Shown here in pieces: positions 25,083 to 51,236 of a stretch of DNA of 64,000 nt (position 1 is the first letter of the stretch; every line of letters begins with the position of its first letter). Under the pieces are notes generated by a model. It worked only from the letters and a program-made list of their open reading frames with translations, was not told the DNA's origin and did not search any database. This stretch comes from a virus (Duplodnaviria > Caudoviricetes), in the IMG/VR virus record IMGVR_UViG_3300017912_001009, positions 1 to 64,000 of that record; one strand, 5' to 3'. A program made the translations under genes and the position numbers.

Positions 25083-25754
25083 TCAGTAGTCTTTTATCAT
25101 TGTTAATATTCCACGATAAACCATTTCAGAGTCTGACTTAGCACTCACTATGTACTTATGACAAGGTATTCCAGTTTCATTCAACTTCTGCAATCCCGGT
25201 CTGAAAGATTCAAAAATAGGATGATTCTCTATTTTTCCATCATAGGGATACTTGTCTTTCCATAAGTCATACTTGTTTGCCCAAAGACCGACAGCCAAGG
25301 GATAGTCGTGGTCTTGCTTCTTCTTCTTTCTACCACCAATTGTCCAATATGGATTGCAGATAGTATCAACTAGAAATGTCCAAGATAACTGCTGCTCTAT
25401 GTCATAGTGCTTGCTTAGATGTCTGTCATCAAACATGAAGATGATGTATTTTACATGCCTTCCTCGCATGTCTCTAACCCATTCTTCCCAATAGACAGTC
25501 TGCCCACCTATGTCAGCAGTCTTTACAGTATGAGCATCTCCATCTAGTTTGACGAACTTGCGAGTAGCCCTGTGTCTGCCTACTGTACGTTTCTGTATTT
25601 CAGGCACTTCTCCTCTAGTCATCAGTTGTTTATGCAGTGTAGTCTTACCTGCTTGACTTGCACCATAGATGCCGAAATTGATAGCGTGAAGCCGATTATA
25701 CAACTTGTTCATTGCTTCTACAATCAGTATTGCAAAACCTGCCATTACCGACAC
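25083..25754 (-). CDS. Small Ras-superfamily (Arf/Sar1-like) GTPase (223 aa)
   Basis: G1 GASQAGKT, G2 RTVG, G3 DIGGQ, strand IIFMFD, G4 ANKYD, G5 SAK; hydrophobic/amphipathic N-terminal helix. Confidence 0.85.
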   Translation of the reverse strand: MSVMAGFAILIVEAMNKLYNRLHAINFGIYGASQAGKTTLHKQLMTRGEVPEIQKRTVGRHRATRKFVKLDGDAHTVKTADIGGQTVYWEEWVRDMRGRHVKYIIFMFDDRHLSKHYDIEQQLSWTFLVDTICNPYWTIGGRKKKKQDHDYPLAVGLWANKYDLWKDKYPYDGKIENHPIFESFRPGLQKLNETGIPCHKYIVSAKSDSEMVYRGILTMIKDY

Positions 25755-33377: not shown

Positions 33378-33602
33378 TCACCCCATTTTCTCCGTCATCT
33401 TGCGAATCTCATCCCAAGACATTTGACCACCATCAGGGACTTGTGTATTGCCCATTGCTGGTGTTGGAGTCTCACGAACAACGAAACCTGACTTCATCAG
33501 TATGTTGTCCTTGTTGTATACTGCTTGTTCCAAGGCGTTGACCTTGTTCACAAGTTCTTTCATTAATAGTAACATTTCATCTTTTTCTTCTTTTTTGCTC
33601 AT
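33378..33602 (-). CDS. Hypothetical protein (74 aa)
   Basis: Coupled start/stop; coiled coil followed by ILMKS. Confidence 0.65.
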   Translation of the reverse strand: MSKKEEKDEMLLLMKELVNKVNALEQAVYNKDNILMKSGFVVRETPTPAMGNTQVPDGGQMSWDEIRKMTEKMG

Positions 33603-34075
33603 ACTTTTCCTTCTCCTTTTAATTTGAATACAAGTAAACCATCGTCTGCGAATATTGCTGCGTAGCCCATACCACCATATAGTTCCCTTGCCATTTCTTG
33701 TGCCTTCTTTTCTGTCATTTTCAAGTCAGTAAGTTTGACATCTGCATAATCCTCTTTCTTCTTACCTGCTTCTCTTATGATTGGGTCTATCTTTTCTCTG
33801 AATAGGTCAACGTACTCATCCCTCGATAAATCATCATTAGCGTTATCCTTGAACTCTGACTCTCTAGGATTCCTTATTGGAGGTGCTTTCCTAATTGGTG
33901 CATCTAGGTATATTTTACTCATCTCCCTAGATTTCTTATTTCTAGCCCTAATCTGTGCTAGTAAGTCTGCCTCTTTATCCTCAGTCCTCTTAGCCGCTTC
34001 TTCGTCTTGTCCGGTAGAGGCTGTCGTTGTGACTCTTGCCATCTCATCTGACTTCAATGTATCAAACCAACTCAT
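33599..34075 (-). CDS. W-motif protein (MSWFDTLKS; ~158 aa)
   Basis: ATG at 34075 follows GGTGATTGAA. Confidence 0.7.
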   Translation of the reverse strand: MSWFDTLKSDEMARVTTTASTGQDEEAAKRTEDKEADLLAQIRARNKKSREMSKIYLDAPIRKAPPIRNPRESEFKDNANDDLSRDEYVDLFREKIDPIIREAGKKKEDYADVKLTDLKMTEKKAQEMARELYGGMGYAAIFADDGLLVFKLKGEGKV

Positions 34076-34080
34076 TTCAA

Positions 34081-34419
34081 TCACCTTGGTCTATTGCCTA
34101 TTTTACCGCCTAGAATTGTTTTGCCTTTGACTTTATTTAACAAAAGAGAAACAATACCTAATTTATCAGCCAACTCGTCTATCTTTTGTGTTTTCATATC
34201 ACTAAGGGTATCATATAATTCGTCTAATGATTCATCTTGACTTGCTGTAGATAAAATTCGTAGGGGTTTCATAGCAAGTGCAAGTTCATCTCTAAGATTA
34301 ATCATCGCGCTTTCTCTTCTATCGTCATCTTGAAACTCCATTTGTAATCTAGTTTCTTCATCACTTGCGCTTTGAGGGATATACCCCTCTCCGTATTTCA
34401 CTATATCTTCCCAACTCAT
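34081..34419 (-). CDS. W-motif protein (MSWEDIVKY; 112 aa)
   Basis: GGTGA RBS upstream. Confidence 0.7.
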   Translation of the reverse strand: MSWEDIVKYGEGYIPQSASDEETRLQMEFQDDDRRESAMINLRDELALAMKPLRILSTASQDESLDELYDTLSDMKTQKIDELADKLGIVSLLLNKVKGKTILGGKIGNRPR

Positions 34420-34486
34420 TCTAAATCACCTAACATTGGAAGGCTCATACCCTTATGCCACTCTACATCTTCAACGATTCTAAGTT

Positions 34487-34816
34487 TCATTCCTTCTCCT
34501 CCTTGTCACCCTTTGGGTATGCTACGCTCCTGATTTGGTCATAAAGCGTTTGATAGTCTTTGCGAAGTTCAGCAGCACTTGCGAGTATGTCTAGGTTCTT
34601 CTCACGGAAGGACTTCATCTTCTTGGTGAGCAATTTATCTGTCTTGACTAAATCGAGGTCTTCCATCTCTTTGATGACTTCCTCTAACTTCGTCATTTCC
34701 TGTCCCATGTACTCAGTTGGTTGAGTTGACTGAAGAAGTTTCTTTATCTTCTTCTTCTGTTTTGGCTCTAGTTTCTCTAGAAACTCGGAGGCTTTCAGTA
34801 TCTCCTGCCATGTCAT
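34487..34816 (-). CDS. W-motif protein (MTWQEILKA; 109 aa)
   Basis: GGAGG RBS upstream; coiled coil. Confidence 0.7.
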   Translation of the reverse strand: MTWQEILKASEFLEKLEPKQKKKIKKLLQSTQPTEYMGQEMTKLEEVIKEMEDLDLVKTDKLLTKKMKSFREKNLDILASAAELRKDYQTLYDQIRSVAYPKGDKEEKE

Positions 34817-34837
34817 GTAGTTGCCTCCTGTGTATGC

Positions 34838-35935
34838 TCAGTTAATTTTAATTGCCCTCTTTTTGTCTTTTCCAAGGTCAAATTGATAGTTACCTACTGT
34901 GACTTTAACAAGTTGCTTCATCTTCTTTCTTGTTTTCTCCAACTCAATTACTTTGTCATCTTCTACTGCATTGTTTCTTAGATTTACAACATGCTCTAAT
35001 ATTTCTTCAATTTTATCGATTAAGGCAGGTATCTGTCCTGTTATCTTACGATAACTATCAAAGGCATCTAATTGCTCTTCATAGATTTCTTTGCCCTCTA
35101 ACGTATCTTCCATTTCTTCAGTAGTACCAAATATTGGAAACTCATCGCCAGCAACTTCTTCTCTCACTGTGAGTTGCCAGTTTTTATCTTCTTCATCAAG
35201 AGATTTATTCAGCGTGTTTTCCTGCTCGTCTTTTATTCTGTCTAAGGTGAGAAGAAGTTCTCTGAATTGCCTTAGCAACATGTTAGGGTCTTCACCTAAT
35301 TCATCCACATCTATTCTCTCACTATCTCTCAACATTTCTACCAATCTATTCAGTTTGCCTCTCGTCATCTTCTTTCCGGTAAGTAGATTCCTTGGCATAT
35401 CAGCAGCAGCCTCAAAGAATTCTCTTATTATCTCAAGAGACTCTTTGCCATTGTATTCCTTTTCTTCTTGACGATACTCGGCTGTATCTTCACTCATCTG
35501 TCTGAACTGTGATAGCAAACCCTCCTCGTCTTGCTCCATTGTGTCATACCCCTTGAAGAATAGAGCCAATATTTCATCAGGTGCAGTTTGCTTTAGAAGA
35601 CTCTGATAGAAGTTGTCTATTTTTTGCTTGCTTGTGCTTCTAGGAAACAAGTACGATTTGACGAACTCTCTCATTGTTCCTCTCATATCTGAATCTGTGA
35701 CATCACCTGTTCGGCTGAATGTCTCTAGAATCTCCTTCCACATCCTGACTGTCTTGGCGGTAGCAGTACGGCGTTTCTCATCTGCCTCTGCTACTTTCTT
35801 TCCTTCTTCGGCTTCTTGTTCTTTCTTTCTTTTCTTCTCTTCAACAAGTTGTATTCCAGTCGTGCCTTCCTCTTCTGAGGGGTCTATATCATCTTCTTTC
35901 TTAATACGCAAGATATCCATGAAATCCTGCGCCAT
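34838..35935 (-). CDS. Acidic helical protein (~365 aa) with variant N-terminal motif DFMDILRIKK
   Basis: Long ORF in the operon. Confidence 0.7.
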   Translation of the reverse strand: MAQDFMDILRIKKEDDIDPSEEEGTTGIQLVEEKKRKKEQEAEEGKKVAEADEKRRTATAKTVRMWKEILETFSRTGDVTDSDMRGTMREFVKSYLFPRSTSKQKIDNFYQSLLKQTAPDEILALFFKGYDTMEQDEEGLLSQFRQMSEDTAEYRQEEKEYNGKESLEIIREFFEAAADMPRNLLTGKKMTRGKLNRLVEMLRDSERIDVDELGEDPNMLLRQFRELLLTLDRIKDEQENTLNKSLDEEDKNWQLTVREEVAGDEFPIFGTTEEMEDTLEGKEIYEEQLDAFDSYRKITGQIPALIDKIEEILEHVVNLRNNAVEDDKVIELEKTRKKMKQLVKVTVGNYQFDLGKDKKRAIKIN

Positions 35936-35940
35936 CTGAA

Positions 35941-36171
35941 TCATCCCCAAGGGTTGTTTGGTGTTCTTGACCGCTTTTTCTTAGGTAGTAGGATTGCATC
36001 GGGAACATCTGCTGTATCGGGTCTCTCCTTCTTCACAGCATTAGGGTCAACACCCCCAACAGAGAAGTCCCTGTTCTTCGTCACACTTCTACTGTGGTGA
36101 GCATATTGCTCTGCTCTTGCTTTCGCTAGTTCTCTTTCCAGTTCTCTTACTCCTTTCTTTTCTTCTGTCAT
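35941..36171 (-). CDS. Hypothetical protein (76 aa)
   Basis: Coupled ATGA overlap with the upstream gene. Confidence 0.6.
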   Translation of the reverse strand: MTEEKKGVRELERELAKARAEQYAHHSRSVTKNRDFSVGGVDPNAVKKERPDTADVPDAILLPKKKRSRTPNNPWG

Positions 36172-36422
36172 TTCTTTTCCTCCCTTAGTTGTCTCAAATC
36201 CTTTTCATCGATATCTCCATCTTTGTCTTTATCGAGTTTCTTCTGACCACCGTATAGTGTCTTTTCCATCTCCTCTTCTGCAACAGCCGGGTCAACCGGA
36301 TGCTCTCTTGCTTCATACATGTCCTTAGCAGGTTTGATTTTACCCTCTTCTGTATCCATCATATCACCACCAGCATCAGGCATCTCCATATCAGTTTGCT
36401 TAATTATGCTCCACCATTCCAT
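36168..36422 (-). CDS. W-motif protein (MEWWSIIKQ; 84 aa) with an EF-hand-like DKDKDGDID segment
   Basis: GGTGA RBS; LDKDKDGDIDEKDL. Confidence 0.65.
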   Translation of the reverse strand: MEWWSIIKQTDMEMPDAGGDMMDTEEGKIKPAKDMYEAREHPVDPAVAEEEMEKTLYGGQKKLDKDKDGDIDEKDLRQLREEKK

Positions 36423-36426
36423 TTTA

Positions 36427-36849
36427 TCACCATTTTACTTTGTTAGCCCAATACGCAGCAGAGGTCTTCCCACGCTTGATGTTCTTAGCATGACGAGCCT
36501 TGAACGAGGCTTGCTTCTTTTTTCTCTTTCCCTTTGGATTCTTCTCGGTTACTGTATCTGCACCTTGTTGTCCAAAGCGAATAGTCTTGACTTTCTTACC
36601 ATCCTTGACAACCACTATATGCGATTTAGTAGGATGCTTAGGAGTTCTCTTTGGTTTACTGAAACCACTCACACCTGCTCTCTTCAAAGCAGGGTGTTTC
36701 TCCCTCTTTAGTGTGTCAAACCAATCCATAGATTTCTTGTATCCTGAAGCATAAGCGGCGGCTGCTTGTCTCTCAGCATCCTTGCGATTGCGATAGACCT
36801 TGCCCTTCTTGCCCCATTTGTATCCTCCTTTGACTTTACGAATCGGCAT
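36427..36849 (-). CDS. Highly basic two-module protein with an internal W motif (~140 aa)
   Basis: MPIRKVKGGYKWG...AYASGY, then DWFDTLK, then KPKRTPKHPTKSH...IRFGQQG...FKARH...YWANKVKW. Both modules resemble small basic phage proteins. Confidence 0.7.
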   Translation of the reverse strand: MPIRKVKGGYKWGKKGKVYRNRKDAERQAAAAYASGYKKSMDWFDTLKREKHPALKRAGVSGFSKPKRTPKHPTKSHIVVVKDGKKVKTIRFGQQGADTVTEKNPKGKRKKKQASFKARHAKNIKRGKTSAAYWANKVKW

Positions 36850-36854
36850 GATAA

Positions 36855-37127
36855 TCACTTCTGAGAGAACTTCCTTCCTGTTGGGACATGTTGCTTTCCT
36901 TTCTTACGACCCTTTCTTTTCTTTCTGTCTTGATAGTCCAATGTCTTCTTCGGGGTTCTTTTGTATGTGGCCTTTGGCATGTATCTCCCCTTTGTCTTGG
37001 AAGGTACTTTCTTCCCCTTCTCCTTTGCACGATGTTGCTCTTGGCTTCCCCACTCCTCATCTGTCCAAGTAGCCAAGTCCTGTTGTGTCTTCTTCTTGGC
37101 CTTGAGAGTTGCAAACCAATCAGTCAC
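36855..37127 (-). CDS. Highly basic W-motif protein (MTDWFATLKA; ~90 aa)
   Basis: GTG at 37127 follows GGTGGTGG and is in frame with the tracked ORF; K/R-rich. Confidence 0.7.
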   Translation of the reverse strand: MTDWFATLKAKKKTQQDLATWTDEEWGSQEQHRAKEKGKKVPSKTKGRYMPKATYKRTPKKTLDYQDRKKRKGRKKGKQHVPTGRKFSQK

Positions 37128-37920
37128 GGTAGCCACCACCTGCTTTCTTGTATCTCTGAGCAAGCAACTGTGCCTTCCTCGCTGACCACTTACCAGCAGG
37201 GCCACCTTTGCTACCTGCTTTGATTCTCTGAAACATCCTCTTTCTCATACCGGGCTTTGTGTAGTTTCCTGCTTGATTTACTTTGGACTTGCTTTTCCTT
37301 TTCTTGTGCAGGATGTCTTGCCACTTCTCAATCTTAGATTCAGATAGATATGCATCAGCAATCAGAAGCCCTGCTTTCTTTCCTACCTCTATATCGCTTG
37401 GATAGTGATTTCCCATTTTCACCCTAGATAGTGATATCTTCTCTGCCATCTTGTTCAACTCCTCTTGCTTGTCGGGATACTGCTTTCCTAGAATTCTTGC
37501 TAAAGCATAAGCCTCTATTGCATGACCACTTGGGAAAGATGGACTGTCATCCGTATCGGTTGTGGATTCTATCTCATCAGAAATCTCGTAAGGTCTTGGT
37601 CTGCCGTACTTGACTTTCAGTTTGATGGTGTGGATATCGATATCCTCAATCAAATCCTCCCTGTCTTCCTTCTCTTCACCGACAATTTCCAACATCATCT
37701 CGATGTTATTTTGGTCTAAGTCCTCAATCTCATCCTCGTCAATCTTATTGTCCTTCATCATGGCGAGAACCTTTGGCAGTTCCTCTTCGTTATCAGGATG
37801 CTCGTATTCAGGGAAGTCTACCTTGAAGGATGGCTCAGACTCAAACAGTCTTCTCTTCTCCTCGGATAGATTCTCAGGAGTGAACTTTGATTCCTCTTTG
37901 ATTGCGTCAAACCAACTCAC
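37120..37920 (-). CDS. PAP2-superfamily phosphatase with N-terminal W motif and basic C-terminal module (266 aa)
   Basis: PAP2 triad K-x-x-Y-G-R-P-R-P, SFPSGH, SR-x5-H-x3-D; starts MSWFDAIKE; internal KWQDILHK precedes NYTKPGMRKR...GGGY. Confidence 0.8.
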   Translation of the reverse strand: MSWFDAIKEESKFTPENLSEEKRRLFESEPSFKVDFPEYEHPDNEEELPKVLAMMKDNKIDEDEIEDLDQNNIEMMLEIVGEEKEDREDLIEDIDIHTIKLKVKYGRPRPYEISDEIESTTDTDDSPSFPSGHAIEAYALARILGKQYPDKQEELNKMAEKISLSRVKMGNHYPSDIEVGKKAGLLIADAYLSESKIEKWQDILHKKRKSKSKVNQAGNYTKPGMRKRMFQRIKAGSKGGPAGKWSARKAQLLAQRYKKAGGGYRD

Positions 37921-38021
37921 TTCTCTCCCTCCAAGTATTTCCTTATTCTTTCATCTGTTTCTGCATTGAGTTTGTCTATCTCTTCCTTCCACTTCCTGAC
38001 AAACTCAAGTATATCGCTCAA
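37917..38021 (-). CDS. Small coiled-coil peptide (34 aa; not in track)
   Basis: TTG start overlapping the portal stop; MSDILEFVRKWKEEIDKLNAETDERIRKYLEGEK; stop overlaps the next GTG. Confidence 0.45.
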   Translation of the reverse strand: MSDILEFVRKWKEEIDKLNAETDERIRKYLEGEK

Positions 38022-39649
38022 CCTACTCTCCTCTCTGTCCGTGAATCAACATTCTGATTACCTGCTTCTGCTGGTAATCCTGTGAATCTCTTATCAGGGC
38101 CAGTTTCCATAGATGGTTTGTTTCTAGTTTCCCCACCGCCTTGACCACCCATCAAAGCCTGTTCTTGTAATTGTCCTAATTGACTTGCATCAATATCAGT
38201 TCCTGCGTATGGGTCAGTTTCGACCTCTTCTTCTGCTCCTTCCTGTGGTGGTGCTTCGGGTTTAGGGTCAGGCTTCTTGAAGGTGAATCTTCCCTCATCA
38301 TCCATATCAACCTCAAACCCTAGATTCTTGATTGACGCTGCTACGTTAACCTCAATCTCTCTCTTTCGTAGTTTGGCAATCTCATCCTCTTCTTCTGAAG
38401 GTGGTAGTTTCAGTTGCCAGTCTGTGATTCCAAACTCCATAGTCATGAACGGGAAGACGTACTCATTCCAAATCGTCTGTGCCATTTCGACTGCTCTGTT
38501 GGTTACGAGTATCTGCATACCCTCGTTATTGAGACCACCACTTGCAGAGTTATCTGCCATGAAGATTTTACTTACTCCGTAGAAGGCAGCGATTCTATCT
38601 CTCAAGTCTTCCTTGACTTGTATGTAGTCCATTTCCTTGAGACTATCCATGAACTTGACCCATTCAACTGCTCCTGTTTTTCCTTCACCCTCTATACCCA
38701 TTACTGGAATGAAGTGAGGGTCTTGTTCCATCTTCTCTTTGACACCACGCCAAAAGGACTTCATCGATTCCATGTTTCTAGTTTGAACTGCTAGTATTCC
38801 TCTTGGCATTCTAGCCTTGGTATATGACGAGTTGACATAGTTTTCCATAGCAATGAGTGTGGTGATGTGATTCCACAGAGTCATTATCGGAGACTGGCCG
38901 TAGAGTCTTGATGGTGCATACTTGCTGAAGTGTAAAACTTCTCCATCGATGAAATACTGCTCCTTTCCATTTGCCCTGTTGACATAATGCACAGGATGCA
39001 ACTCAGAGCCACACATCTCACAGGAGTCAGTCATTGACTTGCTGATGAAGTTTCTATGATTCAAGCAAGTGAATCCCTCACTTCCTCTTTCACCATTCTC
39101 ATCAGCGTATATGTGCATACTAACAGGGTCTCCACGATAGACTTCTTTGATTCGATGCATACGAATGTCGCCATTACCATCGACATAGTATTCCTTTACC
39201 ATGATTAGATATGCATCATCCATTATATTGAGGTCGTCTTCCATCTCCTTGAGAACATCAACGAACATCTGTTCTCCCTTGTTGACATACCCATCGAGTA
39301 ATTTCTTGATGTACTTCAACTGATTTCTATCGGGTTTGAGTAGATTAGTGCTTCCACATTCAACGCACTCTGTTACTGCTTGTTTGTGTTCCTTTCCACA
39401 GTCACCACAGCGAGCGGTGAATTTCTCTTCCCAAACATACCCTCTTCTGAATATCTCGTTCTTCAACTGTGTGATGCATGTCCTAGCAATCACTGATTGA
39501 TATGTGACATGGTATATTATCGGGGCTGTTATGAGATAGGATGTGTCTTTCTCTTGTATTCCCGGATTGTATATCGTTCTGTCTTGGGGCTTCGGTGTTG
39601 TTCTGCGTGTTAATCGCTGAAACAACGAGGGTCTTTTTTCTTCTACCAT
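38018..39649 (-). CDS. Portal protein with zinc-ribbon-like insertions (543 aa)
   Basis: EVLHFSKYAPSRLYGQSP, MPRGILAV, IAAFYGVS are portal-like; insertions CGDC..CVEC and CLNH..CEMC. Confidence 0.85.
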   Translation of the reverse strand: MVEEKRPSLFQRLTRRTTPKPQDRTIYNPGIQEKDTSYLITAPIIYHVTYQSVIARTCITQLKNEIFRRGYVWEEKFTARCGDCGKEHKQAVTECVECGSTNLLKPDRNQLKYIKKLLDGYVNKGEQMFVDVLKEMEDDLNIMDDAYLIMVKEYYVDGNGDIRMHRIKEVYRGDPVSMHIYADENGERGSEGFTCLNHRNFISKSMTDSCEMCGSELHPVHYVNRANGKEQYFIDGEVLHFSKYAPSRLYGQSPIMTLWNHITTLIAMENYVNSSYTKARMPRGILAVQTRNMESMKSFWRGVKEKMEQDPHFIPVMGIEGEGKTGAVEWVKFMDSLKEMDYIQVKEDLRDRIAAFYGVSKIFMADNSASGGLNNEGMQILVTNRAVEMAQTIWNEYVFPFMTMEFGITDWQLKLPPSEEEDEIAKLRKREIEVNVAASIKNLGFEVDMDDEGRFTFKKPDPKPEAPPQEGAEEEVETDPYAGTDIDASQLGQLQEQALMGGQGGGETRNKPSMETGPDKRFTGLPAEAGNQNVDSRTERRVG

Positions 39650-39650
39650 T

Positions 39651-40988: not shown

Positions 40989-40997
40989 ATCTTCACC

Positions 40998-42434: not shown

Positions 42435-42920
42435 TAGAAAACACCTCTCATTAGAATGAACCTCCAACCCAAGTTCTTCTTGATGCCCCAATCATCACCA
42501 TACCTCTGTCGAAACTTATCGACTAACTCTTCAGGTATTCCCATTAAGTCATCAGTTTGAAACTTCAGATTTCTATGCAAACCAACCCATGTTTGCTGTG
42601 GTATCTTCGTAGACCGAAGCCCTAGAATCTTAGGTTTACCTGCTAACTTGTCCATCCTATACTGCAAGAGTGCCTTCCAGTTTCCACCGCCTTTCGGTGC
42701 TTTTCTGTCTCTCGCCTTCAACCCGCCTAAGATACCATAGTCTCCCTTGTCACTGTATCCAGCAATACCAACAACCTCACCATCGTTTGTTCTGACAACC
42801 CAATTATCCAAGTCATACCAAGAAGGAGCGTTTCTCACAAATGGGTCATCAGGGTTGTCCCTGTTCCACATGAAGATAGCATCTTGTTGGGATACTTCCT
42901 TGATTTGTATGTCTGCCATT
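42434..42920 (-). CDS. GNAT-fold acetyltransferase-like protein (~161 aa)
   Basis: WVVRTNDGEVVGIAGY...ILGGLKAR...GGGNWKALL resembles GNAT strands and motif A; ATG at 42920 follows GGTGAGG. Confidence 0.5.
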
Positions 42921-42923
42921 TCC

Positions 42924-45803
42924 TCACCTGAAGTTCGCTTTGAGGAAATAGACCCCCTCTTGTGGAATACCGTACTTAGTCCCAATATTACTCATTGAGT
43001 CTAGTTCCTTGACAACCTTCTCTACTTCCATAGCAGACATGTCTACATTGTACTTGTCGTTCATCAGGTCTATCGCCTCTGAAACCGCATCGTAGTTTTC
43101 TATATTGGACATGCCATAGTAAATCGGCTTTCCTAGCATCTTCCTGATTTCATCGTGAGCCTTGAGAATCAATGTCTGTTCCTCGGACTTCGTTATCTTC
43201 AAGTCCGTTTCTGCTTGTACTATGTTTCCAATCAGCCGTTCTGAACCCTTGACCTTATCCTTGTATGTCTCCTTATTGGATATGAGATGATTGAGAACTG
43301 CCTCAAATGGATATACCTTGCTTGCCTCATAATCCTTAGCCCACTCGCTCGTTGGTTTCTTACTTCCTCCTAGCCCGAACTCTTTGGCATCCAAGCCTGA
43401 CTCATCGAATATATTGTGCAAGAAGTTTCCAAACTCCACATTGACTGCATTGGTTATCTCACCGTCATAGATGTCATCTATCTCATCTGCTAGTTTCTTG
43501 GTTGTCTGCAATAACTCATTTTGCTTTGACCCTACATTCAGGCCAGTCAGCAGTTGGGAGAAGTCTCGTATATTCTCTATTTGACCTAGACTCAGACTGA
43601 ACTCATTGCTCTCCATCCTTAGAAGTGCTATAAGAGGACTCACCTCTGCATTAGTCTCCATCGCTATGTTTTCAATAGGGCGACTACCAACCTTCTCAAT
43701 AAACTCAAGTGGTATGTCTGATGGTTTGAACTTACTCCTACTAGGCTCTATGTAGAAATTTACTATCGCTTTTATTAGGTCTTCAAACTTATCACCTATA
43801 TTCAGTCTGTTCAGTTCCTTGATGTGAGTAAGCCCTGCTCCTGCTCTACCGAATGAGGCTCTAGGAGAACGTGCTTCTCTCATAGTCTCACCTTCCTTCG
43901 TTTTCCTCTCCTGTTGTCCAAGACCAACACTGCCAGCCTTTGAGCGTCTTTCAAAATCAGTGCCGAACTCTATGAACTCGTTGACTGTTTCCAAATACTT
44001 CTGAATTCTTTCGTGAACCTTAGCATCATCATCTGAAGTTCTACCTAGTTCCTTCATCACTGGAAGATACAATTCCCTTACCGAACCAACTTCCATTTGC
44101 TGCAAGTCCTTTATGTGACTCTCCAAGCGAGGTATCAAGTCACCCATATCGATGATAACAAGACCAGTCTTCATCCTTCTTTCGATTTCACGCAACTGCT
44201 TCTTTAACGATGCTCCTGCGACTAACGCTCCTGTGTCATCCCTCTCTGCTGCGTAGGCATATAGAGGGTCTACCTTTATCTTTGAGAATGAGTTTATCTT
44301 ATCCTTCAACTCATCTTCACTATCTAAGTTCTCTAATTCGTCAACCATTGCACCATAGTCACTCATTGGTATTTCGTCTATGGTCTTCTTGTCTTCGTCA
44401 AGCATTGTGATATCTGCTTTTGGTAATTGTGCATTCTCTTTCAAGAACTCCATTAGAAGTGAGATGGCCTTGTCTTCTATGTTGGCTATGTCTTCAATCT
44501 CCACTCTTTCGTAAAGGGCAATGTAATTCAACTCCTCAACCTTGAAAGCAACAAACTCATCAAAGACCTTCTTCAACTCAGAAGAATACTCATCGCTGAT
44601 TTGGTCAATGGCATCCTTGAAGGCATTGTGTGCTTCCTTGAAATCCTCAAACTCAGAGTTTATTTTCTTCCAATAGTTGTAGATTTCTTGTCTTCTCTTT
44701 CTGTCCTTGGTATCTACTCTGCCCATTATCTCAGAAGCCCTTAGTGTGGAGATGCTATACCTTCCCTTGCCCTCTGTCTTCTTCTGCCCTAATTCCTTAA
44801 GCATCGTTTTGAATGGATACATGATAGGAATCAGATACTCAGGTATCGAAGTATCCAGAATCTTAATTGCTCTGTCGGTGTCCATTTTGTCGAAGCCCAA
44901 TCTGATATTCTTCTTGACATAGTTCTCCCATGCTCTATTCCTAGTTAGTGTCCTTTTCGGACTGCGAAACTTATCGAAGTAAAACTTGACTATCTTCTCA
45001 TCCAAGGGTTCTCCCCTTAGTCTGAACAACCCTAGTATGTCTAGCAAGTCCTTGTCCTGCTTGACATTGTTCACCACTTCAGAGGCAGTCATCTTGACTC
45101 TCTCTGAGTCACCTGCTTCCGACACTGCCTCAAACCCTAGAGTCATTACCTCCTCTAGAAGCGGCTTTCTCTTTCTTGCTGGAATCTGCTTGAAACTTGG
45201 GAACTTCTTTTCTACCTCATCTGTGACATCCTCTAGAACTGCTCTAGGTTTCTTCGTTGTTCCATCTGCATTTAGAATGAGCCTACCTTGAAGGTTCTTC
45301 CCCCTCATTATCGCAATGTCGCTAGAGCCTCTAGAGTTTGACTTACTCTGCAAGTAGACGTAAAGCACATCATCGGGGAAGGCTTTCATGTCACGCAGTT
45401 TCAACTTCTCGGTGACTTTTCCTTTAGGTGCAGGGGCTTCTCCTATCTCCTGCTTGAGCCTAGCAATCGCCTCCTCCTTGTTGAACTTAGCAGGTACTGG
45501 CTCTTCTATCTCGACTTCTTTTTCTTCAAACTCTCTAGTTTCAGGGTTATACTCGCTTCTCTTGACTTTCTTTTTCTTTTGAGTGTATTTCTCAACTCCC
45601 CTTCTCTTCAGTTCTGCTATGACTTCCTTATACGTCATCTCATCAGGATTCAGTCGCTCTGCAATTGTCGAGTCAGTAGTCTTAGGATTACCTTGCTCAT
45701 CGAAGTGTTCAGCGTTCAACCTATCCATGTATGCTTCAAGAGCATCCTCGCCACCTTCCATGAGGAAAGAAAACGCCCTGTTCAAATCGACTTCGGGCTT
45801 CAT
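42924..45803 (-). CDS. Very large charged helical protein (~959 aa)
   Basis: ATG at 45803 overlaps the upstream TGA; SAP/HeH-like MTYKEVIAELKRRGV near the N-terminus. Confidence 0.75.
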   Translation of the reverse strand: MKPEVDLNRAFSFLMEGGEDALEAYMDRLNAEHFDEQGNPKTTDSTIAERLNPDEMTYKEVIAELKRRGVEKYTQKKKKVKRSEYNPETREFEEKEVEIEEPVPAKFNKEEAIARLKQEIGEAPAPKGKVTEKLKLRDMKAFPDDVLYVYLQSKSNSRGSSDIAIMRGKNLQGRLILNADGTTKKPRAVLEDVTDEVEKKFPSFKQIPARKRKPLLEEVMTLGFEAVSEAGDSERVKMTASEVVNNVKQDKDLLDILGLFRLRGEPLDEKIVKFYFDKFRSPKRTLTRNRAWENYVKKNIRLGFDKMDTDRAIKILDTSIPEYLIPIMYPFKTMLKELGQKKTEGKGRYSISTLRASEIMGRVDTKDRKRRQEIYNYWKKINSEFEDFKEAHNAFKDAIDQISDEYSSELKKVFDEFVAFKVEELNYIALYERVEIEDIANIEDKAISLLMEFLKENAQLPKADITMLDEDKKTIDEIPMSDYGAMVDELENLDSEDELKDKINSFSKIKVDPLYAYAAERDDTGALVAGASLKKQLREIERRMKTGLVIIDMGDLIPRLESHIKDLQQMEVGSVRELYLPVMKELGRTSDDDAKVHERIQKYLETVNEFIEFGTDFERRSKAGSVGLGQQERKTKEGETMREARSPRASFGRAGAGLTHIKELNRLNIGDKFEDLIKAIVNFYIEPSRSKFKPSDIPLEFIEKVGSRPIENIAMETNAEVSPLIALLRMESNEFSLSLGQIENIRDFSQLLTGLNVGSKQNELLQTTKKLADEIDDIYDGEITNAVNVEFGNFLHNIFDESGLDAKEFGLGGSKKPTSEWAKDYEASKVYPFEAVLNHLISNKETYKDKVKGSERLIGNIVQAETDLKITKSEEQTLILKAHDEIRKMLGKPIYYGMSNIENYDAVSEAIDLMNDKYNVDMSAMEVEKVVKELDSMSNIGTKYGIPQEGVYFLKANFR

Positions 45804-47656
45804 TGACCTACCCCCTGTGATATCTGAATCCAAATCGCAGGTTCTACAAAGCCGCCATCGGGACTAGGTATCTTAGTACCCATGACCTTGCCCTCTGCAC
45901 TGATGTCCTTCATTCTATTCTTTACGTTGTCAAGGAATGCTCTCCTTACTTTAGGATACATTTCGATAACTAACTTCTTGAAATCTTCACTGCTTATACT
46001 TCCTTCTTTCAAATCCTCTTCATCTATCTCAGTCTCATACTCACCGAAGAACTCACTCAATCTCTTCAGTGTGATGATAATCTTATCCAGTGTCCCATCG
46101 TTTGCTGGATTCTTAGATGGGGTTAGATTGTCACTTATCGTATCTTCAAGAATAGACCAAGCATCAGAGTTCTTCTCCTCCACGAAATATCTGAGTTTGG
46201 GTTTGTCTAAATCGAGAGATTGCATTCTGTTTGTCTTTCTATTGAGTCTCATATTTTCTAAAGCACCAATAACATCATCGATGTCTCCGACCTCTTCCTC
46301 AATATCATCCATATTCTCAAACTTATCATTGATTCCTAGTTTCTTTATGGCTGCTGTGAAGTTCTTTGCGGAGTCATCCTCTAGTGCTTCGACCAACTCA
46401 TTCCTTATCTCTTCGGTCATAGCGTTGCTTGTGTCACCCGATACCTCTGCCATCACTTCTTTGAATGCGGCATTCGCATCCTCGTCTGCCTTGATATCTG
46501 CAAACATTCTTCTCTTTGCTTGGTTGCCCTTTCTTGAGAGACTGTCATACTTGTTTCTGTTGTCTTCCCTGAGTTTGATTCTCTTTTCTTTCTCCTCATC
46601 GGACTCGCCTTTAGGCCCAAACCAATTCTCTATGTCTTCCTTGTACTTATCGTAAATGACGCTTATGCTTGGCTCGTCTATTATTTCGTCTATTATCTTC
46701 CGCAAGGCTCTTTCCTCTACGTTACTGCGCTTCTTGTAGGATGTCGGAATTGCAGATTGATTCAACTCTTCGTTTTCTAGTATGAATTCCAAGGCAGGTG
46801 ACAGCACCCTAGTCCCGAACAATATCAGAGTCCCGGAGTCTGTGTTATCAGTGATGAACGCCCTCTTCTTATCTCTGACTGACGAGATGTTCATTATCTT
46901 CTTGATGTAGTCAATCGCTATATCGTCACTGATGCTAGTCCCAATCTCTACTTGAGGCACACCACCTATCTTGAGAATCTTCTTGATTTCAACTAGTTCA
47001 GGATACTTGTCCTCTGCATCGCTTAGAATTGCTCTTCTCAGAGTCTTGTTCGTCTGTATGAATCTCCTCACTCTTTGGTTACTCGCATCTAACTTAGCAG
47101 CATACTTCTTCTTTCCTCTTCCTTGTAGGACTTTCAGGAGTTCTTCGTACTTCTTATTCTTGATGAAACTCTTTACATCAGCATCGAGATTGCCCCTGAT
47201 GTTTCCTTGGCTGGTCTTCTTTGGTTTTATATCATTCAATCGAGCAATGACCTTATCGACATCATCCACAACTTCATCTTGTAACTTGAAATCTGTTCCT
47301 CCGATGTTCACGACTTCCCCTTGGAGGAGTTTCTTGGCTTTCTGAACATTCCTAATTGTGTAATTATCTAAACCGTCTTTCGTAAACTCCGCCCAAGTAT
47401 CATCATTAGACGCTGCTTGCCAAATCTCAAACGTTGGTGTGCCTCGCTTTACTGGAAAGTCCTTCACTTCCTGTTTGCCGAAATCGAAGAGATTCGCATT
47501 CTTCGTCTTTGCAGACTCCTTCTGTCTCTCTAACTTTCTTTTTCGGTCTCTGTGAAACTTCGCTCTCTTACCTGACTTGTCCCACGTTCCCATTACTGGC
47601 TTTTCAACTGGTTTAGGGCCAGTTTTCTTTTCCTTGAGAACGTCTTGCCAACTCAT
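45800..47656 (-). CDS. Large W-motif protein (MSWQDVLKE; ~618 aa)
   Basis: ATG at 47656 overlaps the upstream TAA; basic N-terminus, acidic C-terminus. Confidence 0.75.
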   Translation of the reverse strand: MSWQDVLKEKKTGPKPVEKPVMGTWDKSGKRAKFHRDRKRKLERQKESAKTKNANLFDFGKQEVKDFPVKRGTPTFEIWQAASNDDTWAEFTKDGLDNYTIRNVQKAKKLLQGEVVNIGGTDFKLQDEVVDDVDKVIARLNDIKPKKTSQGNIRGNLDADVKSFIKNKKYEELLKVLQGRGKKKYAAKLDASNQRVRRFIQTNKTLRRAILSDAEDKYPELVEIKKILKIGGVPQVEIGTSISDDIAIDYIKKIMNISSVRDKKRAFITDNTDSGTLILFGTRVLSPALEFILENEELNQSAIPTSYKKRSNVEERALRKIIDEIIDEPSISVIYDKYKEDIENWFGPKGESDEEKEKRIKLREDNRNKYDSLSRKGNQAKRRMFADIKADEDANAAFKEVMAEVSGDTSNAMTEEIRNELVEALEDDSAKNFTAAIKKLGINDKFENMDDIEEEVGDIDDVIGALENMRLNRKTNRMQSLDLDKPKLRYFVEEKNSDAWSILEDTISDNLTPSKNPANDGTLDKIIITLKRLSEFFGEYETEIDEEDLKEGSISSEDFKKLVIEMYPKVRRAFLDNVKNRMKDISAEGKVMGTKIPSPDGGFVEPAIWIQISQGVGQ

Positions 47657-48309
47657 TGTAACTTCTCCTGCATCTTGTCCCTTACATCCAACCAAACTTC
47701 AGGATGGTTCTGTGCTAGAACCTCCTTGATGACCTGCATCTGATGAACGATGATAGTGTCTTGCCTCTTATGCACCAGTTTGCCCTTGAATTCTAGCAAA
47801 TACTTCAGAGACTCACGAACTTCCTTCGCTAATTTCGTCAAAGAGTCGATATATTTCGGGTCTGTTGAGTCTTCAGCAAAAAGTGTATCAATTTTTTGCT
47901 CCAATCTCTGAACATTCACACTCAGAGTCTCGATTTCGTCAACTTCTCTAGTTGCAATCAGGTTTGCAGCAGATTGTTGGACAATTGGCTGAAGATGTTT
48001 ATCCATATGTCGCATAACTTGAGCCTCAGAGCAGTTTAGCATCTTCCCGACTGCCGAAGGAGTCACTTCTCCGGCATGAAGTTCCGCTTCTATCTCATGT
48101 CTCATGGGACTTGTGCAGATATTGCAACTAGGATTGGCAGATTCCACATATCCGCCCATGTGATTCCTCTGATGCTTCGCTGTTGTGCCGCTTTTCCAGT
48201 TCATTTGTTGGTCGAGAGCGTCTGCTGTGTAATTCATGGCTTCCAAATCAGCCTCAAGTTGACTTCTATCCTCATGCATACACAAAGGACAACGCTTTCT
48301 CGTAATCAT
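47653..48309 (-). CDS. Tandem CxxC-HTH-HxxxH protein, candidate terminase small subunit (~218 aa)
   Basis: Two repeats (CPLC...KHQRNH; CNIC...RHMDKH) followed by a coiled coil; upstream of terL. Confidence 0.5.
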   Translation of the reverse strand: MITRKRCPLCMHEDRSQLEADLEAMNYTADALDQQMNWKSGTTAKHQRNHMGGYVESANPSCNICTSPMRHEIEAELHAGEVTPSAVGKMLNCSEAQVMRHMDKHLQPIVQQSAANLIATREVDEIETLSVNVQRLEQKIDTLFAEDSTDPKYIDSLTKLAKEVRESLKYLLEFKGKLVHKRQDTIIVHQMQVIKEVLAQNHPEVWLDVRDKMQEKLQ

Positions 48310-48408
48310 ACCCACTCAAATCCAACAATTGGTGAAGCAATACGGGCAACAAGTACCCACTGCCATGTTCTCGACATTCACCTTTCTTATTCCTCTACAC
48401 TTCATCTA

Positions 48409-49512
48409 TTACACCGCCTTGATAATTTCTCTCCAATCCGAAAAATCCTGCTTTTCTACCTTCTCTTCTGTTTTCTTGTTCTTGAAACCAGCGATTTCTG
48501 CCATGTTCCTAAGTTGCCTTCTTGAAATCGAGAGATAGACATTATCCAAATCTAATTTTACCTTAGACCCTAACCATGCCAGTAGTTTCTCAGACTCAGC
48601 ATCTGATAACTTGAATGATATCTTCGCTGTTTTGCTTTTTTCATCTATGAGTTCTTTGTGAACCTTCCTGTCAAGGAAGTTACCGCTTCTCTCAAACGTA
48701 TAGGCCGGGTCTCTCACTTTGCTATCGAACCAACTTTTGAATGCACTAAGATTCTCGTAGACCCATTTTGCCGCAACTCCCCTCTTTGCTCCTCTCTCTA
48801 GTTTCTCTAGGCGAAGAGGCTTCTGAGGAGTATTGATGAACTCTGCCTTTGGAATTGCCTCAGTGAACTCCTTGCACAATTGAAGCAAACTAGGATGCTT
48901 GAAATCTAAACCTCCATCACCGAACAATGCTTGCCAAACAGGGGGTTTTGCCTTTCCTGCTTTCGTGTTGTAATAATGAGAGGGAACACGCTCAACTGTC
49001 CTGTCTTTATGCCTTCTCTGAAACTTCACATACTTAGGTGTCCTGAAATCACCGAAGATATCCCTTCTTCCTAGAATCTTTCCCTGTTGGTCATAAGATG
49101 TGATATCGTTGAATTTTATATTGGCTGGATTAACCTTGGAGGTTGGGCTATTCATTGCGTCTTGCAAGTAAGTCTGCAAATCTGCAACTGCTTGAATCTG
49201 TGCTGGTGTGAAGAACCCCTTCTTACCTGCGTTTTTCGCCTTAGCGAGATACTGTTGTAGAGGAGACTCTGCTGGTTTCTTGCTACCATCGGCTTGCGCT
49301 CTTCCAACCTTGCCCATGTTGCCGATGAACTCCAAGATGTTAGTGCTTGTCCTACCAGTATTCAACTTGAACTTTCCAGCCGCTCTCTCCCAAGCCACAT
49401 ACTCGTCAGAGAAATTAGGTAGTGCGTCAGGGTTTTTAGGCTCTACCACCAATTCGGGGGTAATTTCTACTTGGGAAGTCTTCTTTTTTACGTTTCTTTT
49501 TCCCTTTACCAC
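48409..49512 (-). CDS. Basic hypothetical protein with C-terminal W motif (DWREIIKA; 367 aa)
   Basis: Long ORF in the operon. Confidence 0.7.
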   Translation of the reverse strand: MVKGKRNVKKKTSQVEITPELVVEPKNPDALPNFSDEYVAWERAAGKFKLNTGRTSTNILEFIGNMGKVGRAQADGSKKPAESPLQQYLAKAKNAGKKGFFTPAQIQAVADLQTYLQDAMNSPTSKVNPANIKFNDITSYDQQGKILGRRDIFGDFRTPKYVKFQRRHKDRTVERVPSHYYNTKAGKAKPPVWQALFGDGGLDFKHPSLLQLCKEFTEAIPKAEFINTPQKPLRLEKLERGAKRGVAAKWVYENLSAFKSWFDSKVRDPAYTFERSGNFLDRKVHKELIDEKSKTAKISFKLSDAESEKLLAWLGSKVKLDLDNVYLSISRRQLRNMAEIAGFKNKKTEEKVEKQDFSDWREIIKAV

Positions 49513-49630
49513 GCTTCTTTCCTCCCCCGTAACTTATGTTGAACAACGCCTGTGTCCCGGAGGAGGTTGATGTAACTGCGCCCTCCGCTCGCAGGATATT
49601 AAACCAAGAAGATTCGTATGGTGATGACAC
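49436..49630 (-). CDS. Small W-motif protein (SWFNILRA; up to 64 aa)
   Basis: Carries the motif; overlaps the downstream gene. Confidence 0.5.
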   Translation of the reverse strand: MSSPYESSWFNILRAEGAVTSTSSGTQALFNISYGGGKKRGKGKKKRKKEDFPSRNYPRIGGRA

Positions 49631-49695
49631 AACCTGAACCTCCTGAATATACTGTGGACAATAAACATTGTTCTAAAATCGTTTGGTTGACGAAT

Positions 49696-50232
49696 TTAGA
49701 ATTGGCCTTGTACGACACTCGACTGAGGCTTGTCTTCAATGAACCGTCTTGCTCTGTTATCCTTGAATCTAGTCATTGGATTGACTCTCCTAAGTGCGTT
49801 CATGAAACCGCCTCTTTGTTGCCTTGCTTGGAATTGTCTTGGGTCAGTCATTTTCTTTCCTTCAAATCTTGCAGTCTTAGGAATGCGAACAGTCATGTCC
49901 TTACCCATGAAAGAGCCTTTTGCCTCATAACCTGCCTTTCTGAAAACCTGCTGCAACTTTGCCTTGATTCTATTTGGGTCTCCTCCTAATCTTCTGATTT
50001 GGTCTCGACCAACAACAAACGTGTCTCCTTGAGGGCCACTGTTAGCAGCATTGTTGTCAACTCTCAACTTGAACACTGGAAGTTGACCCATTTTTAGATT
50101 GCTTACTATGTTCGTAACGAATGGATTTATCTGCTTCTCTTGGAACTCCTCTATCTGAGCATTTATGGCTGCCTCATTTCCTTCTACACCAAACTTAGGC
50201 ACTACCTTCAGAACCTCTGTCCAATCACTCAT
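49696..50232 (-). CDS. W-motif protein (MSDWTEVLKV; ~178 aa)
   Basis: ATG at 50232 follows GGGGGT. Confidence 0.7.
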   Translation of the reverse strand: MSDWTEVLKVVPKFGVEGNEAAINAQIEEFQEKQINPFVTNIVSNLKMGQLPVFKLRVDNNAANSGPQGDTFVVGRDQIRRLGGDPNRIKAKLQQVFRKAGYEAKGSFMGKDMTVRIPKTARFEGKKMTDPRQFQARQQRGGFMNALRRVNPMTRFKDNRARRFIEDKPQSSVVQGQF

Positions 50233-50258
50233 CGTTAATCCCATACCCCCTAAGTTAA

Positions 50259-50489
50259 TTATGATGTCGCTGCTGCATCAGAATAAAATCGCTTTTTGCA
50301 CAAAGCACAAATCTCCCTTCCTTCAGGGTCTAAATCGCCTCTCATGAAATTCTTAGAGCCACACTTAGCACAAACCTTCTCTGCTTCTGCCTCTGTCTTA
50401 GGAACTTCAGGAGTTCTGCTTGCCATCCTGTCTCGCATTCGCATGTTGTATTCCAAAGGGTCGAGTTTTAGAACATCGAACCAACTCAT
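50259..50489 (-). CDS. W-motif zinc-finger protein (MSWFDVLKL; ~76 aa)
   Basis: CAKC...CALC; ATG follows GTGATTGAG. Confidence 0.7.
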   Translation of the reverse strand: MSWFDVLKLDPLEYNMRMRDRMASRTPEVPKTEAEAEKVCAKCGSKNFMRGDLDPEGREICALCKKRFYSDAAATS

Positions 50490-50494
50490 CTCAA

Positions 50495-50701
50495 TCACTT
50501 CGGTTCATGTGTGTAGATGTCTCCATCCTTGTGCATGAATATCTTGCCTTCCTTCTCCATGCTAGATAGAGCCTCTTTCAATTCATCCTCGTCAGCAAAC
50601 TGCTTTAGGTTCTTCATTCCCAAAGCACCACCTTCTTTCTCAATCTCCCGTAGAATTTTCGACTCAAGGGAATCTTCCTTTAGAATGTCTTTCCAACTCA
50701 T
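50495..50701 (-). CDS. W-motif winged-helix-like protein (MSWKDILKE; 68 aa)
   Basis: KILREIEKEGG...ELKEALSSMEKEGKI...IY fits a wHTH pattern. Confidence 0.65.
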   Translation of the reverse strand: MSWKDILKEDSLESKILREIEKEGGALGMKNLKQFADEDELKEALSSMEKEGKIFMHKDGDIYTHEPK

Positions 50702-50762
50702 TTTCGATACACCTCTCCCTGATTGTATAACACATCGAAATCAAAAGAAGTGGTGTAAATCA

Positions 50763-51236
50763 TCAGTCGCATCTCCATAGTTCCTCATCTGAGATTAACT
50801 CATACTCGGACTCTAGCATGACATCCGACACATCGGCATACGATAATACTTCTGAATATCCAAGGGTCAGCAGGAAGCCAATTAACTCAGTTAGGTCTGT
50901 CTCTTCTATCGGTCTTAGAATCGCAATCTTAGGATAATGAGACAATCGTTGGTTTCTTCTATGTACCATCTCCTTCAGAATGCCATTCTTCCTATGTTTT
51001 GGTTTCACATAGTTGTTGCCTATGAAATACCAAGTTCCCATATCAGCAAATGAGGTGTGGGCCACAACTTCGTTATCTACGAACTTTCCAATAACGAATA
51101 GTCTCTCACAGATATGCTCAGGATAACCCTTCTCCAAAGCAGTCAGGAATCCATCTCCCCACCGGGCCTGAATTTCGCTTTCTTTCAAAAAACCTGAGAA
51201 CCATTCGCCCTTATCATTGGTTTTAACAGGTAGCAA
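50763..51236 (-). CDS. GNAT acetyltransferase with variant W motif (EWFSGFLKE; 157 aa)
   Basis: Motif A NYVKPKHRKNGILKEM; later FLLTLGY. Confidence 0.7.
   Translation of the reverse strand: MLPVKTNDKGEWFSGFLKESEIQARWGDGFLTALEKGYPEHICERLFVIGKFVDNEVVAHTSFADMGTWYFIGNNYVKPKHRKNGILKEMVHRRNQRLSHYPKIAILRPIEETDLTELIGFLLTLGYSEVLSYADVSDVMLESEYELISDEELWRCD

What the first reader, a model, noticed from the sequence alone, without database searches (positions are those of the whole stretch)
33599..51236. A shared W-x-x-x-[LI]-K tag on ~15 unrelated proteins flanking terminase/portal: candidate capsid-targeting/processing code for a large cargo set
N-terminal copies: MSWFDTLKS (34075), MSWEDIVKY (34419), MTWQEILKA (34816), MEWWSIIKQ (36422), MTDWFATLKA (37127), MSWFDAIKE (37920), MSWQDVLKE (47656), SWFNILRA (49436-49630), MSDWTEVLKV (50232), MSWFDVLKL (50489), MSWKDILKE (50701), EWFSGFLKE (50763-51236). 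Internal copies at domain junctions: DWFDTLKR (~36706-36726), KWQDILHK (~37303-37326). C-terminal copies: DWREIIKA, and loosely GWRFILMR. Codons vary synonymously (e.g. TTG/CTG/CTA/CTC Leu, AAG/AAA Lys), so selection acts on the peptide. The tagged bodies are unrelated (phosphatase, GNAT, wHTH, Zn finger, basic modules, large helical proteins). I did not see the motif at the N-termini of tail or plus-strand genes. Precedent: the T4 internal-protein capsid targeting sequence removed by gp21. A plug-and-play tag on this many cargos in an archaeal virus is not something I know to be described.
Basis: partly seen in the sequence, partly recalled or inferred. Interest (0 to 1): 0.92.

Follow-up and report, generated by a model that had tools for sequence, protein, structure and literature searches.

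The report
Shared address tag on magrovirus proteins
In this uncultured ocean virus of archaea (a magrovirus), half of the genes beside the head-assembly genes start with the same eight-residue peptide, which most likely loads a fast-changing set of small proteins into the virus head and is then clipped off by the head protease, as phage T4 does, although packaging has not been shown.

Summary
The window is a magrovirus (Poseidoniales virus, 89.8 kb). Eleven of 22 genes at 33599-51236 start with M-[STND]-W-x-[DE]-[IV]-[LI]-K, against 1 of 86 elsewhere (p 2e-8). In related loci the tag heads 1,038 proteins of 483 mostly orphan, soluble families under purifying selection. Five complete relatives give 63 hits (control 0), 61 on the head strand.

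A profile built from cargo tags alone (Trp positions dropped) ranks the prohead protease's own two flanking Lys sites first and third among the genome's windows. In distant proteases that Lys disappears where nothing follows it. The tag's first half matches the conserved Trp helix ending the scaffold. Lys is kept in 93% of N-terminal but 46% of C-terminal copies.

Best reading (about 0.6): a docking helix overlapped with a Lys cut site, working like the T4 capsid-targeting sequence but unrelated in sequence. Binding, packaging and cleavage are untested. The first codons are also conserved as DNA, which suggests spread by recombination. I found no paper on the tag; this scan noted it before in other magroviruses.

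The parts
33599..51236 (-). Tagged-gene island interleaved with portal (38018-39649), terminase large subunit (40998-42434) and conserved large head-module genes
34052..34075 (-). N-terminal tag of 158-aa gene 33599-34075, a fusion of two genes that are separately tagged in relatives; only a Lys-Ala site is left at the joint
34396..34419 (-). N-terminal tag of 112-aa near-orphan gene 34081-34419
34793..34816 (-). N-terminal tag of the conserved 109-aa helical protein 34487-34816; W3 invariant in 53 homologues; modelled as short helical turns; its homologue is the untagged C-terminal part of a 755-aa protein in an outgroup virus
35906..35935 (-).
36399..36422 (-). N-terminal tag of 84-aa acidic gene 36168-36422
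36706..36726 (-). Internal tag at the joint of two basic modules in 36427-36849; the downstream module is an untagged stand-alone gene in marine bacterial phages and a tagged stand-alone gene in relatives
37101..37127 (-). N-terminal tag of 90-aa basic gene 36855-37127 (GTG start)
37303..37326 (-). Internal tag joining the PAP2 domain to a basic module that is a separate tagged gene in relatives
37897..37920 (-). N-terminal tag of PAP2-family phosphatase gene 37120-37920
42446..42469 (-). Loose C-terminal copy on 161-aa gene 42434-42919
47633..47656 (-). N-terminal tag of the 618-aa conserved-position orphan 45800-47656
48418..48438 (-). C-terminal copy on 367-aa gene 48409-49512; Trp helix kept in many homologues at about 25% identity, Lys relaxed
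49589..49609 (-). Near-N-terminal tag of 64-aa ORF 49436-49630
50206..50232 (-). N-terminal tag of 178-aa gene 49696-50232
50466..50489 (-). N-terminal tag of 76-aa four-cysteine gene 50259-50489
50678..50701 (-). N-terminal tag of 68-aa gene 50495-50701 (best-scoring copy, 23 bits)
51183..51206 (-). Degenerate copy (one extra residue) on GNAT-like gene 50763-51236; canonical in distant homologues
29036..30277 (-). Prohead protease (Peptidase_S78, herpes-assemblin/T4 gp21 fold, invariant H68, S126, E155) fused to a helical scaffold
30215..30229 (-). Protease residues 17-21 (FTILK): conserved Lys site just before the protease domain, disordered in the model
29759..29776 (-). Protease residues 168-173 (KFDILK): last strand of the barrel plus the Lys at the protease/scaffold joint; best non-Trp match to the tag in the genome
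29039..29080 (-). Scaffold C-terminal Trp helix (M400-S-W-G-D-I-H), conserved far beyond the tagged lineage
28951..28962 (-). Major capsid protein residues 25-28 ending in invariant K28, a likely propeptide cut site (gene 27673-29034, SU10_MCP)
33396..33422 (-). C-terminal Trp helix of the conserved 74-aa head-module protein 33378-33602
32734..32751 (-). Tag-like internal copy (W44-K49) in the ATP-dependent DNA ligase of the head module; its Lys site is kept in 24/35 homologues

Best explanation
The peptide is a two-part head-sorting signal. Its first half (helix cap S/T/N/D, Trp, acidic residue, Ile) forms a short amphipathic helix like the one ending the scaffold and docks tagged proteins in the assembling prohead (inferred; receptor unknown, capsid inner face or scaffold). 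Its second half (hydrophobic-hydrophobic-Lys) is a site for the S78 prohead protease, which would remove an N-terminal tag and split fused modules at internal copies (inferred). The released proteins would stay in the mature head and probably enter the next host with the DNA, some as DNA-binding or core proteins, many as a fast-turning counter-defence set (inferred by analogy). The shared DNA of the first codons plus ribosome site lets genes be swapped, fused and recruited by recombination (inferred). Shown: motif, module and strand restriction, portability, purifying selection, match to the protease's own flanking sites. Not shown: binding, packaging, cleavage, ejection.
For: Module restriction: 11/22 vs 1/86 genes; 63 hits vs 0 control in five complete relatives, 61 on the head strand. 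Portability: 1,038 tagged proteins in 483 families, none with a membrane-like segment; one module is untagged in bacterial phages and tagged here exactly at its border; the 109-aa protein is the untagged tail of a large protein in an outgroup. Selection: pN/pS 0.28 in tags and 0.28 pooled in bodies, below 1 in 60/63 families. Protease link: tag positions +1..+5 rank the protease's flanking sites 1st and 3rd among non-Trp windows of the 25,646 scanned; most of 150 distant proteases keep F-x-[ILV]-[ILVM]-K after the domain, and about eight that end there lose the Lys; invariant K28 in the capsid protein, also in outgroups and halovirus HVTV-1. Two separable halves: Lys in 596/644 N-terminal vs 24/52 C-terminal copies (p 5e-16), Lys just upstream of 25/52 C-terminal copies (p 0.001); an insertion separates Trp from the Lys site in distant homologues of 34487. 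Scaffold link: M-S-W-x-D-I shared with the scaffold and 74-aa protein tails, which end in a helix. Precedent: the T4 CTS combines targeting and cleavage residues in 10 aa (PMC9026906).
Against: No virion proteome, binding or cleavage data. Scaffold tails differ from the tag at +4 (His 100% vs Leu/Ile) and +6, score poorly on the tag profile, and show no evident co-variation with it. The residue after the Lys is free in tags (often Lys, Glu, Asn) but mostly Ser/Ala/Gly at the core sites. The protease's FDIL is also a structural beta strand, so part of its conservation is fold. Generic Lys sites are not significantly enriched in the head module (p 0.10). One tagged gene lies on the replication strand here and in two of five relatives. 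Only about 10 of 290 cargo families have a Pfam match and none is a known defence inhibitor.
Confidence: 0.6

Rival explanations
1. Packaging label without cleavage: the whole octapeptide, Lys included, is a docking helix (like an encapsulin cargo-loading peptide) and stays on the cargo.
For: The 74-aa protein tail has Lys at +5 in 58% of homologues; free residue after the Lys; C-terminal copies could not be removed by a downstream cut.
Against: Lys is much less conserved in C-terminal copies, where a docking role should need it equally; the best non-Trp match is the protease's own joint.
Confidence: 0.13
2. Address label for a receptor other than the head (host membrane, vesicles, a viral factory, a chaperonin or a degradation machine).
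For: Amphipathic helix with a capping box; cargos include enzymes (PAP2 phosphatase, GNAT-like) with no obvious role in a head; rare tagged genes on the replication strand.
Against: Replication and tail genes are almost never tagged; resemblance to the protease and scaffold peptides; no Poseidoniales record among 13 scattered matches of one DNA pattern in GTDB (a weak test).
Confidence: 0.14
3. Mainly a DNA/RNA element: a copied gene-start cassette (ribosome site plus first codons) that gives strong late translation or serves as a recombination seed; the peptide is a by-product.
For: First codons far more uniform than control gene starts (AGT 97% vs 45%, ACT 69% vs 21%, GAA 98% vs 78%); gene sets turn over quickly.
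Against: Leu/Ile/Lys codons vary freely while the residues are kept; tag pN/pS 0.28; Trp helices persist at C-termini and joints where no translation starts.
Confidence: 0.07
4. Protease substrate mark only: the prohead protease activates or destroys tagged proteins in the infected cell late in infection, without packaging them.
For: Strong match to the protease's flanking sites.
Against: Trp is invariant in tags but absent from the core Lys sites; prohead proteases of this fold are described as acting inside the assembled prohead (PMC9026906, PMC12749128).
Confidence: 0.06

Closest known systems
Capsid-targeting sequence (CTS) of phage T4 internal proteins IPI-IPIII and the diverse IP genes of T-even phages
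   Same: Short N-terminal peptide shared by otherwise unrelated, small, variable proteins; targeting and protease residues in one peptide of about 10 aa; protease of the same fold (5jbl among the matches) (PMC9026906, PMC3012670).
   Different: Different sequence and P1 residue (Lys here, Glu in the L/I-X-E motif of gp21); archaeal host; about a dozen tagged genes per genome and at least 483 families; copies also internal and C-terminal; genes interleaved with portal and terminase; function untested here.
C-terminal coat-binding helix of scaffolding proteins (P22 gp8 helix-turn-helix)
   Same: This scaffold ends in two short helices, the last with an invariant Trp; P22's terminal domain binds the coat N-arm (bioRxiv 10.1101/2022.12.13.520362).
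   Different: No sequence likeness to P22 tested; here a similar helix is reused on non-scaffold proteins and differs at +4 and +6.
Phage P1 DarB capsid-targeting signal
   Same: N-terminal peptide sufficient to load a foreign protein into a head (PMC9024508).
   Different: One protein, no consensus among Dar proteins; here a clear consensus on many.
HK97 gp4 protease C-terminal encapsidation tail and Lys-specific maturation (own knowledge; Duda et al. 2013 not held)
   Same: S78-family protease, Lys P1 cleavage and a terminal peptide that brings a protein into the prohead.
   Different: Single user in HK97; no cargo family.
Encapsulin cargo-loading peptides
   Same: Short terminal peptide, at either end, that addresses unrelated enzymes to an HK97-fold shell (own knowledge).
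   Different: Cellular, not cleaved, different consensus.

Membership tests
T4-type capsid-targeting sequence | Short N-terminal peptide shared by unrelated small proteins | tested here: met
   1,038 proteins, 483 families, median 107 aa
T4-type capsid-targeting sequence | Ends in the gp21 motif L/I-X-E | tested here: not met
   Ends in [IV]-[LI]-K; so it works like a CTS but is not a member by sequence
T4-type capsid-targeting sequence | Contains the cut motif of the virus's own prohead protease | tested here: inconclusive
   Matches the protease's flanking Lys sites, but those cut sites are themselves inferred
T4-type capsid-targeting sequence | Sufficient to package a foreign protein into the head | not testable with these tools
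   Needs a prohead assembly system
T4-type capsid-targeting sequence | Cargo ejected into the host, some inhibiting defence | not testable with these tools
   Cargos almost all orphan
Scaffold C-terminal capsid-binding helix | Conserved terminal amphipathic helix on the scaffold | tested here: met
   W, D, I, H 100% in 67 scaffolds; helix 402-412 in the model; present in distant proteases
Scaffold C-terminal capsid-binding helix | The tag has the same binding face as the scaffold tail | tested here: inconclusive
   Same at -2, -1, 0, +2, +3; different at +4, +6; no evident co-variation
Scaffold C-terminal capsid-binding helix | Binds the major capsid protein | not testable with these tools
Peptidase S78 prohead protease (gene 29036-30277) | Pfam match above cut-off, assemblin fold, catalytic His/Ser/Glu | tested here: met
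   PF04586 36.6 bits; herpes protease and T4 gp21 folds, E about 1e-4 to 7e-4; H68, S126, E155 invariant
Magrovirales (Poseidoniales viruses) | About 90-110 kb, halovirus-like head module with an inserted ligase, opposite-strand replication module | tested here: met
   against PMC5434244 and PMC12999244; the family within the order was not determined

The most novel reading that the evidence does not exclude
Abundant marine archaeal viruses run an open cargo system: a peptide assembled from the scaffold's docking helix and the protease's own cut site, usable at either end or between modules of a polyprotein, loads each virion with ten to twenty proteins drawn from a pool of hundreds of unknown families that are swapped by recombination at the tag's own DNA. 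The tag would then be a sequence handle that lists injected effectors, including counter-defence proteins, of uncultured archaeal viruses.
Probability: 0.35. Interest if true: 0.88.

Novelty: new variant of a known kind. Interest (0 to 1): 0.74.

Why it matters
Magroviruses are abundant and uncultured, and most of their genes have no known function. If the tag is a head-loading signal, it assigns a location and a time of action to 10-20 orphan genes per genome and gives a mineable catalogue (483 families already in about 270 loci) of candidate injected proteins acting on Poseidoniales. It would extend the T4 internal-protein strategy to archaea at a larger scale, suggest how such signals arise (from the scaffold tail and the protease's own site), offer a reason for the ligase sitting in the head module, and supply an eight-residue loading tag to test in recombinant shells.

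Tried and rejected
Complex prediction (capsid protein dimer plus tag) was not available. No solved-structure relative by sequence for the capsid protein or the protease-scaffold; no fold match for the 109-aa tagged protein; no Atlas hit for the 618-aa and 367-aa proteins. Pfam and PHROG scans of cargo representatives gave few named families. Enrichment of generic Lys sites in the head module was not significant. Co-variation of tag and scaffold tail could not be resolved because both are nearly constant. Papers with possible experimental cut sites or IP-locus DNA data (HVTV-1 virion study, Rifat 2008, Repoila 1994, Duda 2013) were not held. Keyword look-ups in four magrovirus papers found no mention of the motif. 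Chance, an ORF-calling artefact and membrane or secretion signals were rejected. Caveats: my gene caller is a simple script, so some starts are uncertain; loci L162-L279 were fetched by a tag-shaped DNA pattern, so codon tests used L001-L160 only; family counts depend on BLAST thresholds; the N versus C comparison counts related sequences at 60% clustering, so its p values are optimistic; the loss of Lys in truncated proteases was read by eye, not counted.
Full report
Context. The window is the first 64 kb of an 89,815-base virus record. The minus strand carries tail and head genes, the plus strand replication genes. The capsid protein (27673-29034, SU10_MCP), prohead protease-scaffold (29036-30277, Peptidase_S78), ATP-dependent ligase (30316-32880), portal (38018-39649) and terminase (40998-42434) were identified by Pfam and PHROGs; the nearest cultured relatives are haloviruses HVTV-1 and HCTV-1. 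This layout, including a ligase inside the structural module, is that of magroviruses (PMC5434244; PMC12999244). Keyword look-ups in four magrovirus papers found no description of the motif.

Observation. Every listed copy is present. A profile from 473 cargo families of more distant relatives gives 12 windows of at least 12 bits in the genome (0.23 in shuffles) and N-terminal tags on 11 of 22 genes inside 33599-51236 against 1 of 86 outside (p 2.2e-8). The exception is a plus-strand gene beyond the window (G000 86249), whose homologues lie in the head region of several relatives. In 80 terminase loci 636 of 1,608 genes have Trp in residues 2-6, and 537 of these have Lys five residues later. 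In five complete relatives a tag-shaped DNA pattern hit 63 times (control 0), 61 on the head strand and nearly all in one block of about 20 kb.

The cargos. 1,038 distinct tagged proteins fall into 483 families, 326 of them singletons; median length 107 aa; none has a membrane-like segment, against 83 of 2,224 untagged proteins. Only about ten of 290 representatives match Pfam. They are real genes: pN/pS is below 1 in 60 of 63 families (median 0.29), and 0.28 in the tag itself. Turnover is fast: relatives at about 80% terminase identity share 0-2 of 11 tagged families with the closest locus. The tag is portable. The basic module of 36427-36849 is an untagged stand-alone gene in Celeribacter and Synechococcus phages and gains the tag exactly at its border here. 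Genes 33599, 36427 and 37120 are fusions of units that are separately tagged in relatives, which explains the internal copies. In an outgroup virus the homologue of 34487 is the untagged end of a 755-aa protein.

Link to the protease. The protease has the assemblin/gp21 fold and invariant His, Ser and Glu. It is flanked by conserved Lys sites at residues 17-21 and 168-173, and the capsid protein has an invariant K28 after two leucines. Positions +1..+5 of the tag profile, learned without these proteins, rank the two protease sites first and third among all non-Trp windows. Among 150 distant proteases F-x-[ILV]-[ILVM]-K usually follows the domain, and the Lys is lost in about eight that stop there, as expected for a cut site that only matters when a scaffold follows (read by eye). 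HVTV-1 and three outgroup viruses have such Lys sites but no tag island in the stretches read. Against this: the residue after the Lys is free in tags; FDIL is also the last strand of the barrel; generic Lys sites are not enriched in the head module (p 0.10).

Link to the scaffold. The scaffold and a conserved 74-aa head-module protein both end in M-[SD]-W-x-[DE]-I (W, D, I, H invariant in 67 scaffolds), modelled as a terminal helix with Ser as cap. This tail is older than the tag, being present in outgroups without tagged genes. Terminal scaffold helices bind the coat protein in P22 (bioRxiv 10.1101/2022.12.13.520362). The tag shares five positions with this tail but has Leu/Ile for His at +4 and no hydrophobic +6; co-variation could not be shown. 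The two halves of the tag behave separately: Lys is present in 596 of 644 N-terminal copies but 24 of 52 C-terminal copies, and C-terminal copies often have a Lys just upstream instead (25 of 52); in distant homologues of 34487 an insertion parts the Trp from the Lys site and both persist.

DNA level. The first codons are more uniform than control gene starts (AGT 97% vs 45%; ACT 69% vs 21%; GAA 98% vs 78%), while the Leu/Ile/Lys codons are free. I infer that the tag spreads by copying or recombination of a gene-start cassette and is then held by selection on the peptide.

Mechanism and odds. Most likely (0.6): Trp helix for docking in the prohead, Lys site for release by the prohead protease, cargos delivered with the DNA. 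Rivals: docking without cleavage (0.13), a non-head receptor (0.14), a DNA/RNA cassette only (0.07), cleavage without packaging (0.06). No step beyond sequence comparison is shown; the complex predictor was unavailable and no RNA run was listed.

Comparison. It works like the T4 capsid-targeting sequence, in which 10 residues carry both targeting and gp21 cleavage and head a diverse set of counter-defence proteins (PMC9026906; PMC3012670; IPIII as host-range factor, bioRxiv 10.1101/2022.04.14.488369). It is not a member by sequence (Lys, not L/I-X-E). P1 DarB has a targeting peptide without a shared consensus (PMC9024508). New here: an archaeal virus, the scale, use at both ends and at joints, and the apparent origin from scaffold tail plus protease site. 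Earlier notes of this scan report the same tag in other magrovirus genomes with the same reading; they are not independent evidence. Verdict: real, not found in the papers I could search, a new variant of a known kind; interest 0.74.

Noticed in passing
window 30316-32880: The head-module ligase has a tag-like Trp...Lys copy near its N-terminus and a partly conserved Lys-Ser site (K222, 19/35 homologues) before the ligase domain; it may itself be a processed head protein, which would explain its position.
   Followed up: partly
G000 C1 86249-86563 (+); G003 3687 (-); G005 85840 (-): A single tagged gene sits on the replication strand in three genomes; in this genome it is at the far end, facing the tail-fibre genes.
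   Followed up: partly
L161 13622-17563 (HVTV-1 gp115, annotated zeta toxin, 1313 aa): Seven hydrophobic-x-Lys sites, most followed by Asp or Ala, suggest a polyprotein cut by the halovirus prohead protease.
   Followed up: no
window 39651-40988: Conserved 445-aa gene between terminase and portal with a LAGLIDADG-like segment by eye (as noted for magroviruses in PMC5434244); no Pfam hit at E 0.05.
   Followed up: no
window 42924-45803: Untagged 959-aa conserved-position orphan (about 25% identity among relatives) with clustered Lys sites near a conserved C-terminus; candidate core or ejection protein.
   Followed up: partly
window 47653-48309: Conserved 218-aa Cys/His-rich gene upstream of terminase, never seen tagged; candidate terminase small subunit.
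   Followed up: no
L191, L264: Loci with 20 of 26 and 19 of 27 genes tagged: the island can be much larger than here.
   Followed up: no
window 25083-25754: Small GTPase-like P-loop gene among neck and membrane-protein genes.
   Followed up: no
L295, L296, L298: Isolated gene starts matching the tag in three cellular genomes (Lachnospiraceae, Leuconostoc, Sulfolobaceae), single copies, probably chance.
   Followed up: partly
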